64,000 bases of DNA from Eledone cirrhosa (lineage: Eukaryota), in NCBI GenBank assembly GCA_964016885.1, contig CAXHJY010001109.1, forward strand, positions 1-64,000. Direction: 5' to 3'. The notes beneath the pieces were generated by a model. The model was not told the origin of the DNA and searched no databases. It saw nothing but the letters and a program-made list of their open reading frames with translations. A program made the position numbers and the translations under genes. This document shows, piece after piece, positions 2,161 through 62,780 of the stretch (position 1 is the first letter of the stretch; the number at the start of each line of letters is the position of its first letter).

Positions 2161-2199
2161 TGAACCTGAAGATTGCGAAAGCATGAAAGTACTTGTTCA
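2161..2199 (+). ncRNA. Minimal type I hammerhead ribozyme
   Basis: tgaac CTGAAGA t-tgc-gaaa-gca-t GAAA GTACTT^ gttca. Stem I tgaac/gttca; palindromic stem III AGTACT. Confidence 0.85.
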
Positions 2200-2391
2200 A
2201 TTAACACTTAACATTTAATATTCTAGCATACTATTTCATTATAATACCATTATAAATTTTAAAGGATTGTAAATAAAACGAGTAAATCAGACAAAGTTGG
2301 AATTCCTCTTATTAATATATATATGTATACATATACATATATATATATATATATATATATATATATATATATATACATAGATATATATACC

Positions 2392-2518
2392 TCAGATCAT
2401 TGAAGCTCACGGTGGAGATGACGAAGGACCGTGACGAGATGCTGTGCTGAATAAGACCCGTCCCACCCTTGCAAGCAGGGAAAAGCGGACGTAAAATGAT
2501 GATGATGATGATGATGAT
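2392..2518 (+). mobile_element. RTE LINE 3' tail ending in (ATG)n
   Basis: Reverse complement of 11025-11155. Confidence 0.8.
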
Positions 2519-2525
2519 ATATATA

Positions 2526-58459: not shown

Positions 58460-59081
58460 ATGTAAGTATGCATGTATACGTACATACATATATGTATACA
58501 GACGTACAGTAGCATGCACATATATATATATATATACATATATATATACATATGCATACAGGTACACATACATATATGCACGTATCAGTTTAGCGGCGCT
58601 TATTATAACGTCGCTTTGTTCGTTTGTAAACAAACTGAACAGCCTGAATTTATGCCATACGGTGTTAAGGCAACCACGTCACCTTTTTGTTCAACACTGA
58701 CACAGGAACGATGTACTAGTTTCAAGCTTGTTAGCTATCATCAGCACCGTTTACCCATCTGCCAGATAGTTGAACGTTCGAAAGTATATACTTTCCTTAT
58801 GAAAATTAACGGCTGAGCAGCCTAATTTGCATATTGAGTGAGTTAAATCGGTCAGGCATACCGAAAACGATAAATTGAAACAAATTCAGGCTGTTCAGTT
58901 TGTTTACAAACGAACAAAGCGACGTTATAATAAGCGCCGCTAAACTGATACGTGCATATATGTATGTGTACCTGTATGCATATGTATATATATATGTATA
59001 TATATATATATATATATATGTGCATGCTACTGTACGTCTGTATACATATATGTATGTACGTATACATGCATACTTACATTT
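58460..59081. mobile_element. Second locus of the 478-bp HHR family, with a fold-back inversion
   Basis: 58460-58884 is nearly identical to 18563-18993; 58882-59081 is inverted. Confidence 0.88.
58707..58751 (-). ncRNA. Minimal type I hammerhead ribozyme
   Basis: Identical to 18816-18860. Confidence 0.88.
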
Positions 59082-61850
59082 CAGGTAACTGACCTTGTGG
59101 GCTTATTTTTAATCAATTCGCTACATGGGAAAATACCTGGTACTACCGGAGGTTTATATAGGGATGACATGCTTTTACTTATTAATAATAATAACCCTGA
59201 ACTAAATAGAAAATGTAAACAAATTACAAAATTTTTTAATTACTTTAACCTTAAAATAGAAATTGAGAACAACCATAGAATAGTCAATTTCCTAGATATA
59301 ACATTAAATCTCAACACATGTCTCCACTATCCTTTTCACAAGTTGAATGAAAACTTAAACTATGTCAACTTTAACTCTAACCACCCCAGATCTGTCAAAA
59401 ACACTATAGTAAACTCAGTTCAAAAACGTATCTCTAGGATCTCGTCGAATAGAAAGATTTTCGACGAAAAGGCCCAATACTATAATGAAGCACTAGCTAG
59501 GGCAGGATATGCTGATAAGATTGTGTACATAGATAATGATAGACAAACTAAACAAAGTAACAACTTTTTTAATTACGGCAACAACATTAACAACTATAAT
59601 AGAAAGCATTACAATAATTCCAAAGGACAAAAAAGAAATAGAACTAGGAACATAATTTGGTTTGCCCCCCCCCCTTTCTCACTAAACATTAAAACCCACA
59701 TCGCTAAATTATTTTTCAAAGCTCTTGATAATCGCTTCCCTAGAACACATAGGTATCACCCAATTTTCAATAGGCATACAATTAAATTAACCTACTCATC
59801 CACCAAAAATTTAGCACAAAATATTAATAGAATAAATAATAGGAACTTAAAACCTACTGATAATAGCATAAATAATATACAAGTTAACAAATGTAACTGT
59901 AGAGATAGATCTAAATGTCCGTTAAATAACAACTGCTTAGTTAAAAATATAGTATACAATTGTAATGTTAATACTGACTCTAATTCTTTTAACTACGTCG
60001 GTTCCACATCGACGGAATTTAAACTTCGCTATAATAACCACAAGAATTCTTTCACAGATCCAAGTAAAAAATCTTCAACGGCACTATCAGGCGTACTCTG
60101 GCAACTTAAGCTAGATAACGTTAGATATTCGACGGCTTGGAATATAGTCTCAAGAGGGATCCCTTTTAATTCATCCTCTGAGACATGTGACCTCTGCGCA
60201 GAGGAGATATTCTTTATACTAAAATCTAAAAATTCCCTTAACCTACGGACAAATTTATTCAGTTGTTGCAAACATAGATTAAACTCAACGTTTAAATATA
60301 AATTTAAATTTAAAATGTAGTATATTTAGTTTGATTTATATTTATATGGGAAACTAGCCGATAAATTTTTGATTCCTAAATCTTTGATTCCTTCTTTTTA
60401 CTCTTTTTTTATTGTTTATTTTTATTTTATTTTTATCTAAACATTCCTCATGAAAAATTAAGCTACCCTAAAAGCTGATGCTCCAAATTTTTTGAATAAA
60501 CCTTGCACTAGATAAACTTCTATATTAAATATAAGAACATATGTAGACATAATTGGACATCATAATCTTTTTGAAATGATCTTTGCTAGATGTGATTTGA
60601 TAGATAATTTTTGGCTTTGTCTTGTAATGAACTTGGCAATATATTGTCAATTAACTTTGAAGGGTTGATCTTTGTGGTTTATTTTTATTTTTATTTTTAT
60701 TTTTATTTTTATTATTGTAGTATTCTATAATATTTTTTGTATTTCTTTAATATGTAAATTTTTAATACGTAATATTTTTTAATACGAAGTATGTTTAATA
60801 TATAATATTTTTATTATGTAATATTCTTTCGTAATATTTTTTTAGTTTTCTATTCTATATTTTTACTTATTATTATTATTGTTATCTTTTTATTTTTAGT
60901 TTTGTTTATGATATATATTTTTATTAGTATATTGAAATCTGCTCTCTATTTCTGCTTGATAGATAATCTTGTAGAGTAATGACAGGAATAATAATACACA
61001 TATTTGTATGCTCAAATTTTTATACCACATTGAGAATGTTTTCCGTGAAATTAGAGTTTGCAGAGTGAATCAGTTGGATTCGCATGGATGTTTGTAGCTG
61101 TCACATAAACATATGAATTTTTTAAAACTAAACATAAGATAATTAATTTTCACACATTATGGATACTTGTCTCATTCAGGAATACTGATATTTACAATAT
61201 AGTGTAAGTTTTATAAATACTAATACATTAAAACATAGGGTTTTTACGCCTCGAATATATCTGGCTATTTTTAAATTTTTTTTCTCTCGCTATTTTTTTT
61301 CCTCTCTCTATATTTTTTCTCTCTATATACTTGAGCTAAATAAATAAATAAATAAATAAACGTATCATTGATACATTTACTCAAAATGACCTCCCACTAC
61401 CTAATTTTCTATATATATATGTATCTATCTCTATTTCCTCTCTCTCTATATATATATCTCTTTCTGTTTCTTTACATGAAGTTCTTCGCTTTATCTATCT
61501 TTCCATCTCTCTATTTTGTTCCATGCATTTCCTCTTTCTCTTCTTTTTCTTCCTTTTCTTCGTTTTCTGTTTTTCTTTCTGTTTTCTCTCTTTCTTTCTC
61601 TCTGTGTAAAATTTTCTCACTGCCAGCTTAAACCTCTTCAAATGAAGTCGGTGTTATAACGGTATGTCGAATCTATTTATCTATAAAACTGTTTATATTG
61701 TATTTTGTCTGATGAAGGCATAGCATATTGTTAATATGATATCCCCGAAATATATATAATGAAATAAATATGGTTTTATAAATATAGTTTTCCATTTATT
61801 TAATATTTAATATTGTAATATACTCCAAATATGTGTCGAGTGCTTTTATA
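59082..61850 (+). mobile_element. 5'-truncated Penelope-like element (ORF 59097-60320, long AT-rich 3'UTR/pLTR)
   Basis: GLYRDD, NFLDITL, SNHP, IIWF.PPFS, CNC..CPL, IVYNC..YVGST..FKLRY, CDLC. Confidence 0.92.
61701..61766 (+). ncRNA. Type I hammerhead ribozyme in PLE pLTR
   Basis: tattttgt CTGATGA agg..catatt-gtt-aatatg..ccc GAAA TATATA TA^ atgaaata; base of stem II imperfect. Confidence 0.75.
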
Positions 61851-62168
61851 TCAGTTATAAATGTTTACTAGTTGTAACCCAACAATTTTAAATATAACTT
61901 TCCATACATATATATATATATATATATATATACACATATACACACACACACACACACACACACACACACGTGTGTGTGTACAAGCATACACATACACACA
62001 CACATACATACATTCACACAAACATACAACGTACATACACATACATGAATGCACTCCACTACATATTCACACACGCAAATAAATATAAGAAAAAAATATA
62101 TAAATATATATTAACAAATTTTTGACAGCGATACATGCCCCAGCTAATTTATATTTATACTCGGATTC

Positions 62169-62780
62169 TTTTCCTAGAGTGCTTAAACTATCTGTGACTA
62201 ATCCCGGTTTTTTTCATAAAAACTGTGATAATTATTGCTATTTTGCTGAACTCCTTTGTAGAGTTTTTTTTTCAGAATGTATTTGACTGCTATTTCTTGT
62301 AAATAAACATTCACTTCCATCCTGACGTCACTAGCCCCGTTTTTTCCTCGTGTGCTTTTTCATAAATACACATGAAGGCGAACTAGCCAGTTTTAGAATT
62401 CCCTTTTTCGGATTATATTACTGTGAGAGCCCTGGTTTTCTGTTGAGCTCTGCTGATGATTGAAATTCCAACCGTGACCATCTCCACTGAAAGTTTTCAT
62501 GAAATAGTCTTTTAAGACTATACAGAGCATTTGATGTTATTCCAAATTGAAGGATAAGTGTTTCAAACTTTATTTTATCATGAGTTAAAGGTCTATAGAT
62601 TTTCCCTGGATTTTACTAAATTCTGTGGATGAATTTATATCCTGATTCTCTTTTGAGATGAGTTTGAGTTATTTTTCCTAAATCTTTCGTTAACTACTTT
62701 TCCCATCTTGACGTTATAGTCGCATATATGTTATAGAATGCCGTTAGCTTCTTGCTAAAACAATCTCTATACCTCTCATT
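62169..62780 (+). mobile_element. ~610-bp non-coding HHR element, copy 2 (diverged)
   Basis: Colinear with 57759-58370. Confidence 0.8.
62447..62528 (+). ncRNA. Type I hammerhead ribozyme with stable stem III
   Basis: gctctg CTGATGA ttgaaa..tttcat GAAA tagtctt-tt-aagacta TA^ cagagc. Confidence 0.9.

What the first reader, a model, noticed from the sequence alone, without database searches (positions are those of the whole stretch)
2161..62528. Ten complete hammerhead ribozymes from seven sequence families in 64 kb
Seen: HHR folds at 2161, 4825, 8406, 18816, 19323, 55556, 58038, 58707, 61701 and 62447, each with a closing stem I. Eight have a short palindromic stem III (AGTACT, ATGCGCAT, ACTACGTAGT, ACTAGT, ATATATAT). 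Known: PLE-associated minimal HHRs have palindromic stem III and are proposed to cleave as dimers. Inference: if this density is typical, the genome holds a very large ribozyme repertoire that could cut read-through host transcripts.
Basis: partly seen in the sequence, partly recalled or inferred. Interest (0 to 1): 0.75.

Follow-up and report, generated by a model that had tools for sequence, protein, structure and literature searches.

The report
Penelope hammerheads, about 240,000 per genome
The ten predicted self-cutting RNA motifs are real and sit at the ends of known kinds of jumping genes (Penelope-like elements and their small parasites); the kind is ordinary, but this probable octopus genome is estimated to hold roughly 240,000 of them, with no sign so far that they harm the host genes they sit in.

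Summary
All ten type I hammerhead folds are present (10 of 10; shuffles give 0.04-0.16 per 64 kb). They form seven families but nine insertions, and an eleventh lies at 55750. Three sit 3' of Penelope-like element (PLE) ORFs (two Hydra clade, one Neptune-like), six in three non-coding tandem retrozyme families (about 480, 590, 630 bp), one in an unassigned end fragment. The 8406 copy has a U3-A8 core, fixed in its family and already published. Seven family patterns give 108,310 genome matches; 59 spaced 10-kb samples give 85 per Mb, about 240,000 (160,000-335,000) in 3.0 Gb, above the counts I found in print (axolotl 120,000). The window is about twice the average, not an outlier. Cutting of host transcripts is unshown: in 1.05 Mb of myosin and dynein genes, 24 hammerheads are sense and 29 antisense; most copies lack a same-strand partner or are predicted to pair with their own antisense arm. 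No cleavage or RNA data. Verdict: new members of a known kind, unusual only in number. The scan found such elements before, in this and other octopus-like genomes.

The parts
2161..2199 (+). Type I hammerhead, stem III AGTACT (1 bp + tetraloop as monomer), triplet CUU, predicted cut after 2194; 3' end of a Neptune-like PLE
   Evidence: 7,404 genome matches to the family pattern vs 48 control
1151..2314 (+). 5'-truncated Neptune-like PLE: inverted arm 1151-1407, GIY-YIG C-terminus 1407-1778, 3' region with the hammerhead; right end approximate, then (TA)n
   Evidence: 775-aa open-frame relative with GLKF, DKG, YLDD, CX4CxxC linker, RVT_1 (below cut-off) and GIY-YIG
4825..4895 (-). Type I hammerhead, stem III ATGCGCAT (2 bp + tetraloop), triplet AUA; 3' end of a Hydra-clade PLE
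   Evidence: 21,981 matches to its 3' half vs 0 control; same 3' region follows a Hydra ORF in L089
6146..7480 (-). Hydra-clade PLE ORF fragment (YRDD to C-terminus; CxCX5C linker, CxxC, CxH)
8406..8495 (-). Type I hammerhead with U3-A8 core (UUGAUAA), stem III ACTACGTAGT (3 bp + tetraloop), triplet GUC
   Evidence: core UUGAUAA in 27 of 30 loci, pattern not matched in the other 3; 8,017 matches to its 3' half vs 0 control
8330..9251 (-). Fold-back insertion of the 591-bp tandem retrozyme; the + arm (8957-9251) keeps only the 3' half of the hammerhead
18816..18860 (-). Type I hammerhead, stem III ACTAGT (1 bp + tetraloop), triplet GUA; left arm of a fold-back insertion
   Evidence: 10,650 exact genome matches vs 0 control
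19323..19367 (+). Same hammerhead, right arm; predicted fully paired to the upstream antisense arm in a read-through RNA
18560..19671 (.). Fold-back insertion of the ~480-bp tandem retrozyme in (TA)n-rich DNA; arms end at unit positions 270 and 323
55556..55611 (+). Type I hammerhead, stem III ATATATAT, triplet AUA, in a ~270-bp fragment between (TA)n tracts; host element not assigned
   Evidence: inside the pattern class with 48,780 matches vs 181 control
55750..55796 (-).
   Evidence: 9,206 exact matches to its 5' part vs 0 control
58038..58118 (+). Type I hammerhead with 8-bp stem III (predicted monomer-competent), in one unit (57759 to about 58367) of a ~630-bp tandem retrozyme that cuts off an unrelated Hydra ORF
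   Evidence: 2,272 matches vs 0 control, tandem spacing 627-642 bp
58707..58751 (-). ACTAGT-family hammerhead in a fold-back retrozyme insertion 58457-59084
59082..61900 (+). 5'-truncated young Hydra-clade PLE (ORF part 59082-60320; right end approximate)
   Evidence: 101 scored of 89,326 first-look candidates, 98-100% identical, open frames often 738-745 aa; DKT, YRDD, CxCX5C, CxxC, CxH
61701..61766 (+). Type I hammerhead, stem III ATATATAT, in the 3' repeat of that Hydra element; the same motif stands 5' and 3' of the ORF in L065
62447..62528 (+). Type I hammerhead with 7-bp stem III in a second unit (62144-62790) of the ~630-bp retrozyme; stem I pair G-C where 58038 has A-U

Best explanation
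The ten motifs are type I hammerhead folds at the 3' ends of Penelope-like retrotransposons and in non-coding tandem repeats (retrozymes) that likely borrow the Penelope enzyme, and they are predicted to cut the elements' own RNAs rather than host RNAs. Shown: the folds, their hosts, their copy numbers. Inferred from published PLE and retrozyme work: in tandem or two-repeat source copies, two hammerheads cut a unit RNA out of a longer transcript (as dimers where stem III is 1-2 bp), which may be circularised and is copied into (TA)n tracts by the PLE RT and GIY-YIG nuclease. Because copying starts at the 3' end and often adds an inverted arm, nearly every new insertion, however short, brings one or two hammerheads; several young, very active families then give about 85 per Mb. 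Most scattered copies are likely near-silent passengers: no same-strand partner, weak stem III, or an antisense arm transcribed first.
For: Hosts: Neptune-like ORF ends about 380 bp before 2161 and a hammerhead lies at that place in 7 of 8 loci, the window's own among them; Hydra ORFs precede 4825 and 61701; PLE-ORF hits in only 3 of 10, 1 of 30 and 2 of 30 loci of the three tandem families, longest Met-ORF 66-95 aa. Footprints: fixed 3' ends near unit positions 270 and 328 followed by (TA)n, inverted arms, as described for PLEs in PMC8557442. Structure kept across families: 43 stem I/stem III types around one core, 20 seen more than once; stem I A-U/G-C and A-U/U-A swaps in 27 long-stem copies; U3-A8 swap. 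Passengers: of 50 sampled hits 29 solo, 19 with only an opposite-strand partner, 2 with a same-strand partner within 5 kb (10-kb stretches cut some partners off); in genes 11 sense-only, 12 antisense-only, 12 two-armed insertions, all 12 with the antisense arm first; 19323 folds wholly onto its antisense arm.
Against: No cleavage assay and no RNA evidence. The strand test is small (sense share of one-armed events 0.27-0.69, so a 2-3-fold loss is not excluded), includes about 10% chance hits (4-7 per 1.05 Mb in shuffles), and covers two gene families. Density in those genes (50 per Mb; myosins 78, dyneins 24) is below the sample (85 per Mb), though on both strands alike. Private changes were rarer in core than non-core positions (6 of 627 vs 107 of 5,019, p 0.048), which could mean selection on inserted copies, but inherited source variation inflates the non-core figure. 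About a third of sampled hits (18 of 50) have 3 bp or more in stem III and may cut alone. Published PLE hammerheads cut poorly even as dimers and 8 of 9 frog retrozyme dimers did not cut. 55556 and 55750 have no assigned host.
Confidence: 0.85

Rival explanations
1. A sizeable share of the scattered hammerheads cut host pre-mRNAs and read-through RNAs co-transcriptionally and so shape the transcriptome.
For: About 240,000 motifs, 50 per Mb inside genes, sense copies among them, including a long-stem-III copy in sense in a myosin gene; most invertebrate retrozyme hammerheads cut as monomers (PMC7761336); an intronic ribozyme tunes Cpeb3 mRNA in mouse (PMC10919898 abstract). Cleaved introns can still be spliced (recalled, not from a call), so cutting need not leave a strand bias.
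Against: 24 sense vs 29 antisense, p 0.58; one-armed events 11 vs 12; with stem III of 3 bp or more, 5 vs 5. Fold-back layout puts the antisense arm first; monomer stem III pairing is predicted near zero for nine of the eleven window copies. No RNA data.
Confidence: 0.12
2. The motifs are catalytically idle hitch-hikers or protein-binding structures kept for packaging or priming, with little cutting even in source elements.
For: Low in vitro activity of PLE hammerheads and the authors' own caveat; 8 of 9 frog dimers inactive; Naiad PLEs spread without canonical hammerheads.
Against: Full catalytic core, cleavable NUH triplet (H never G by the descriptor) and the compensated U3-A8 pair are kept across unrelated families; mussel and coral retrozymes cut and give circular RNAs.
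Confidence: 0.08
3. Chance folds in AT-rich repetitive DNA.
For: The window is AT-rich and full of (TA)n; Rfam reports nothing.
Against: 10 observed vs 0.04-0.16 in shuffles; 52 vs 1-4 in 590 kb; reversed-pattern controls 229 vs 108,310.
Confidence: 0.01

Closest known systems
PLE pLTR hammerheads (Cervera and de la Pena 2014, PMC4209133; parts 1-2 of 4 read)
   Same: Type I, short palindromic stem III, often a mismatch at the foot of stem II, mostly solo copies or opposite-strand pairs, several families per genome, U3-A8 variant reported in Schistosoma (about 1,300 hits).
   Different: Counts there are thousands (about 2,000-9,000 per genome); here over 100,000 by direct pattern count. Descriptors differ, so the comparison is rough.
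Hydra-clade PLEs (Craig et al. 2021, PMC8557442; section 11, passages, supplement passages)
   Same: DKT, CxCX5C linker, CxxC and CxH, no CCHH, (TA)n targets, canonical hammerhead; Hydra-1_Obim from Octopus bimaculoides with its hammerhead is in their supplement.
   Different: RWR instead of RWK; element about 3.8-4.0 kb rather than under 3 kb; described as a small number of families, whereas here several Hydra families are abundant and one is 98-99% identical across copies.
Neptune (or Nematis) EN+ PLEs
   Same: GxKF, DKG, YLDD, CX2-5CxxC linker, C-terminal GIY-YIG with two cysteines, 3' hammerhead, inverted arm.
   Different: Neptune vs Nematis not separated; no tree built.
Animal non-LTR retrozymes (Cervera and de la Pena 2020, PMC7229834, passages and section 14; Li, Clavereau, Pollet 2026, 10.64898/2026.07.22.740005, parts 1-3 of 5)
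   Same: Non-coding tandem units, one type I hammerhead each, GC under 45%, co-occurring with PLEs; predicted self-paired circles (60-69% paired).
   Different: Units of 480-640 nt exceed the 170-400 nt circles of the 2020 paper but fall within the 51-972 bp of the 2026 survey; one family has a fixed U3-A8 core that a CUGANGA descriptor misses; expression and circles not shown here.

Membership tests
Type I hammerhead ribozyme | Core CUGANGA / GAAA / UH with C3-G8 or compensated pair | tested here: met
   9 of 10 canonical, 1 of 10 U3-A8; that swap is natural and active per PMC3088659 passage
Type I hammerhead ribozyme | Three stems, ends joined in stem I | tested here: met
   stem I 5-8 bp in 10 of 10; compensatory swaps
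Type I hammerhead ribozyme | Self-cleavage at H17 | not testable with these tools
   needs an assay
Type I hammerhead ribozyme | Match to an Rfam hammerhead model | tested here: not met
   0 hits at gathering score; a library limit rather than a defining failure (my judgement)
PLE-associated dimer hammerheads | Palindromic stem III too weak for a monomer | tested here: inconclusive
   1 bp in 4, 2 bp in 3, 3 bp in 1, 7-8 bp in 2; predicted dimer duplex -3.2 to -12.9 kcal/mol; no assay
Hydra-clade PLE | CxCX5C linker, CxxC and CxH, no CCHH | tested here: met
Hydra-clade PLE | DKT motif | tested here: met
   4 of 4 long copies of the 59082 family; not covered for the 6146 family
Hydra-clade PLE | RWK motif | tested here: inconclusive
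   RWR at that place, a conservative change
Hydra-clade PLE | (TA)n target and canonical hammerhead in terminal repeat | tested here: met
Hydra-clade PLE | Placement in an RT tree | not tested
   compared by eye with supplement rows only
Neptune/Nematis PLE | RT plus C-terminal GIY-YIG with CX2-5CxxC linker, DKG, GxKF | tested here: met
   (RVT_1 27.9 bits, under the 29.6 cut-off; GIY-YIG over cut-off)
Non-LTR retrozyme | Tandem units each with a type I hammerhead | tested here: met
   periods about 465-540, 590, 630 bp elsewhere in the genome; window copies are single units or fold-backs
Non-LTR retrozyme | No protein coding | tested here: met
   longest Met-ORF 66-95 aa; PLE hits in 6 of 70 loci, seemingly neighbours
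Non-LTR retrozyme | Expressed as linear and circular RNA | not testable with these tools
   no RNA holder listed

The most novel reading that the evidence does not exclude
This genome carries the largest hammerhead repertoire yet counted (about a quarter of a million, one per 12 kb, dozens of families, about one in ten with a U3-A8 core), and the monomer-competent, one-armed, sense copies among them cut introns of host pre-mRNAs in large numbers without being purged: a genome-scale layer of co-transcriptional cleavage, possibly tuned by A-to-I editing of the fold-back hairpins.
Probability: 0.12. Interest if true: 0.72.

Novelty: new member of a known kind. Interest (0 to 1): 0.38.

Why it matters
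The kind is known. What is new is scale and a usable test bed: about 85 intact hammerheads per Mb against roughly 4 per Mb in axolotl (120,000 in 28 Gb), invisible to Rfam and unmentioned in the 2026 Octopus vulgaris repeat annotation. With tens of thousands inside genes, one annotated genome and one cleavage-end library could settle whether PLE hammerheads matter to host transcripts, and young autonomous Hydra and Neptune-like elements lie beside their candidate retrozyme parasites for pairing tests.

Tried and rejected
Rfam gave only low-complexity miRNA hits. Type II/III scan of the window: none. Loose-setting hits at 26776, 34905, 37168 rejected as chance. The core-like string at 33755 has no stem III and lies in what looks like coding sequence of another retroelement (by eye); 32260 and 34285 look like decayed hammerheads and were not counted. 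Assigning 58038 to the Hydra ORF just upstream was rejected: the retrozyme unit begins at 57759 and interrupts that ORF, and only 2 of 30 family loci have a Hydra hit. Expression: no RNA holder listed; laying four contig sets of unknown kind gave 3,497 pieces in X1, 1 in X5, none in X4 and X6, and says nothing on RNA or circles. Core-versus-flank decay test was inconclusive. Pfam does not recognise the Hydra proteins. Luense et al. 2017 on dimer cleavage was not held; known only through the review PMC6765202. Searches for a published Schistosoma total and for C3U/G8A wording returned 0; PMC6155905 passages gave no counts. Fewer dynein stretches were read than planned (540 kb), which leaves the strand test smaller.
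Full report
Setting. The window is the start of contig C1136 of G000, a 3.0-Gb genome. It is AT-rich, full of (TA)n tracts and LINE-type RT fragments. Its one clear host ORF, a galactosyltransferase at 35968-37185, has as closest named relative a protein of Argonauta hians (54%), so the animal is probably an octopod; that is an inference.

Observation. A script descriptor for type I hammerheads finds all ten at the stated coordinates, four of them on the minus strand. In 150 dinucleotide shuffles of the window the mean was 0.04 hits with the canonical core and 0.16 with compensated cores, none palindromic. 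Eight have the palindromic stem III named, two a 7-8 bp hairpin; seven families is right. Three refinements: 18816 and 19323 are the two arms of one insertion, giving nine insertions; 8406 has the core UUGAUAA (U3-A8); and an eleventh motif at 55750-55796 (-) was missed. Rfam sees none (only 150 of 366 weak hits were displayed).

Hosts. (a) 2161 follows a GIY-YIG fragment (1407-1778). The family has 775-aa open frames with GLKF, DKG, YLDD and a CX4CxxC linker, which fits Neptune or Nematis PLEs as defined in PMC8557442; a hammerhead lies at the same place in 7 of 8 loci, one of which is the window itself and one of which has a changed stem III. (b) 4825 and 61701 follow ORF fragments with YRDD, a CxCX5C linker, CxxC and CxH and no CCHH, the Hydra-clade marks. 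The 59082 family is young: 101 scored matches of 89,326 candidates at 98-100% identity, many with 738-745 aa frames, DKT present, RWR for RWK, and the hammerhead on both sides of the ORF in L065. A Hydra element with its hammerhead from Octopus bimaculoides is already in the supplement of that paper. (c) 18816, 19323, 58707 belong to a ~480-bp unit, 8406 to a 591-bp unit, 58038 and 62447 to a ~630-bp unit; all three form tandem arrays elsewhere, have no Met-ORF over 95 aa and have a PLE-ORF hit in only 3 of 10, 1 of 30 and 2 of 30 loci. They fit animal non-LTR retrozymes (PMC7229834; 10.64898/2026.07.22.740005). The 480-bp family ends mostly near unit positions 270 or 328, then (TA)n, with an inverted arm, the PLE footprint. 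(d) 55556 and 55750 are short end fragments between microsatellites with no host assigned.

Structure is under selection at family level. One core is kept around 43 stem I/stem III types, 20 seen more than once, in 112 hits from 1.64 Mb plus the window (singletons include chance hits). The long-stem family swaps A-U for G-C and A-U for U-A in stem I among 27 copies read from 30 loci. The U3-A8 core is present in 27 of 30 loci of its family; the swap is known from Schistosoma PLEs and as an active natural variant. U3 cores made up 13 of 112 hits, some of them chance.

How many. Exact or tight patterns for the window's families gave 10,650 + 7,404 + 8,017 + 48,780 + 21,981 + 2,272 + 9,206 = 108,310 matches against 229 for reversed patterns (three patterns cover only part of the motif). 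Fifty-nine evenly placed 10-kb stretches (60 asked, 1 did not exist) held 52 hits, 50 after merging overlaps, against 1-4 in six shuffles: 85 per Mb (bootstrap 56-115), about 240,000 (160,000-335,000) genome-wide. Ten in 64 kb is about 1.8 times the mean; resampling reaches ten in 7-13% of draws. Published counts I saw: axolotl up to 120,000, mussel about 5,000, Xenopus about 9,000, coelacanth about 4,000, Schistosoma 'thousands' plus about 2,000 and 1,300. Descriptors differ and my reading was partial, so 'largest known' is a lead. Searches for a cephalopod survey (one work; 30 papers, 20 listed, none such by title) found none. The count excludes rearranged hammerheads that earlier notes report in this genome (untested here).

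Do they cut host RNA? I took gene spans from colinear Pfam exon hits (myosin heads; dynein N2 to C domains) and scanned 1,053,710 bp from 17 myosin and 6 dynein genes (one 314-kb myosin span of doubtful unity and one 2-kb span were left out; dyneins were sampled in 70-100 kb blocks). Result: 24 sense, 29 antisense (p 0.58); by insertion 11 sense-only, 12 antisense-only, 12 two-armed, all 12 with the antisense arm first; for stem III of 3 bp or more, 5 and 5; shuffles 4-7 hits. So no purge of sense copies is visible, but the interval (0.27-0.69) allows a moderate one. Density in these genes was 50 per Mb (78 myosin, 24 dynein), lower than the sample but on both strands; the 2026 preprint also reports fewer retrozymes in frog introns. 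Why they may be harmless: of 50 sampled hits only 2 had a same-strand partner within 5 kb (edge effects apply); predicted monomer pairing of A15.1-U16.1 is 0.00-0.06 for nine window copies and 0.90 for the two long-stem ones (nearest-neighbour models ignore tertiary contacts); and the 19323 copy folds entirely onto its upstream antisense arm. Against this, 18 of 50 sampled hits have 3 bp or more in stem III, most invertebrate retrozyme hammerheads cut as monomers, and cut introns may still splice (recalled). Private changes were rarer in core positions (6 of 627 vs 107 of 5,019, p 0.048; 58 of 63 cores intact), but this test is biased and I read it as inconclusive. There is no RNA evidence either way.

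Mechanism. Shown: folds, hosts, numbers, lack of strand bias in the sample. Inferred from PMC4209133, PMC7229834 and the review PMC6765202: paired hammerheads in source copies release a unit RNA, possibly circularised, which the PLE RT and nuclease write into (TA)n tracts; 3'-first copying with inversion leaves a hammerhead in almost every stump. The abundance thus follows from recent activity of many PLE and retrozyme families.

Verdict. Real, well above chance, new members of known kinds. The number is striking and makes the host-transcript question testable, but nothing here shows a host function. Papers seen: PMC4209133 parts 1-2 of 4; PMC8557442 passages, section 11, supplement passages (file cut when stored); PMC7229834 passages and section 14; the 2026 preprint parts 1-3 of 5 (its supplements could not be seen and may list further counts); PMC6765202 passages and part 2 of section 11; PMC3088659, PMC7761336, PMC6155905, PMC13282606 passages; PMC10919898 abstract. 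Hammerhead numbering is recalled.

Noticed in passing
window 59070-59095: The arm of the 480-bp retrozyme ends at its usual position 270-272 but is joined directly to the 5'-truncated Hydra ORF, with no (TA)n between: either a later Hydra insertion at the retrozyme end or one chimeric insertion, which would point to Hydra as the mobiliser. Only such case among the ends listed.
   Followed up: partly
window 35968-37185 +: Uninterrupted 405-aa frame with a Galactosyl_T domain; probable host gene, closest named relative from Argonauta hians (54%).
   Followed up: partly
window 63164-63997 -, 56837-57766 +, 54442-54723 -: Three further Hydra-type ORF fragments of other families (CxCX5C linker), none with its own intact hammerhead found in the window.
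   Followed up: partly
window 32220-33236 - and 34225-34300 -: PLE-like GIY-YIG fragment followed by a decayed hammerhead at 32260; another decayed core with a G at the cleavage position at 34285.
   Followed up: partly
window 47700-49046 +: 448-aa frame that looks by eye like the start of a PLE-type RT (DKS motif, LYPSI), no Pfam hit; followed by a 1,150-aa LINE frame (49510-52962) with endonuclease, RT and zf-RVT.
   Followed up: no
window 54069-54281: Fold-back piece of a diverged relative of the 480-bp retrozyme holding only the 3' half of the hammerhead.
   Followed up: partly
L161 (G000:C2:199,097,582): A Neptune-like PLE with a 775-aa open frame and intact hammerhead lies in sense inside a myosin gene.
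   Followed up: partly
L017, L018, L073, L075, L097, L108: At least four more families with U3-A8 cores (stem III ACCGGT, ACGGTCGT, ACAATTGT and a long one) in the random sample; CUGANGA-only descriptors would miss them.
   Followed up: partly
window 45029-46915, 39957-40923, 1-766: Tandem arrays: 65 copies of 29 bp at 98% match, 69 copies of 14 bp, and a CCA-rich array at the contig start.
   Followed up: no
window 2907-4376, 11284-12210, 22083-23270, 24354-26177, 29687-31522: Several copies of a LINE whose RT is followed by a PHD finger.
   Followed up: no
G000 C1-C4: Four scaffolds of 379-443 Mb beside many of 22-136 Mb: a very uneven karyotype or assembly.
   Followed up: no
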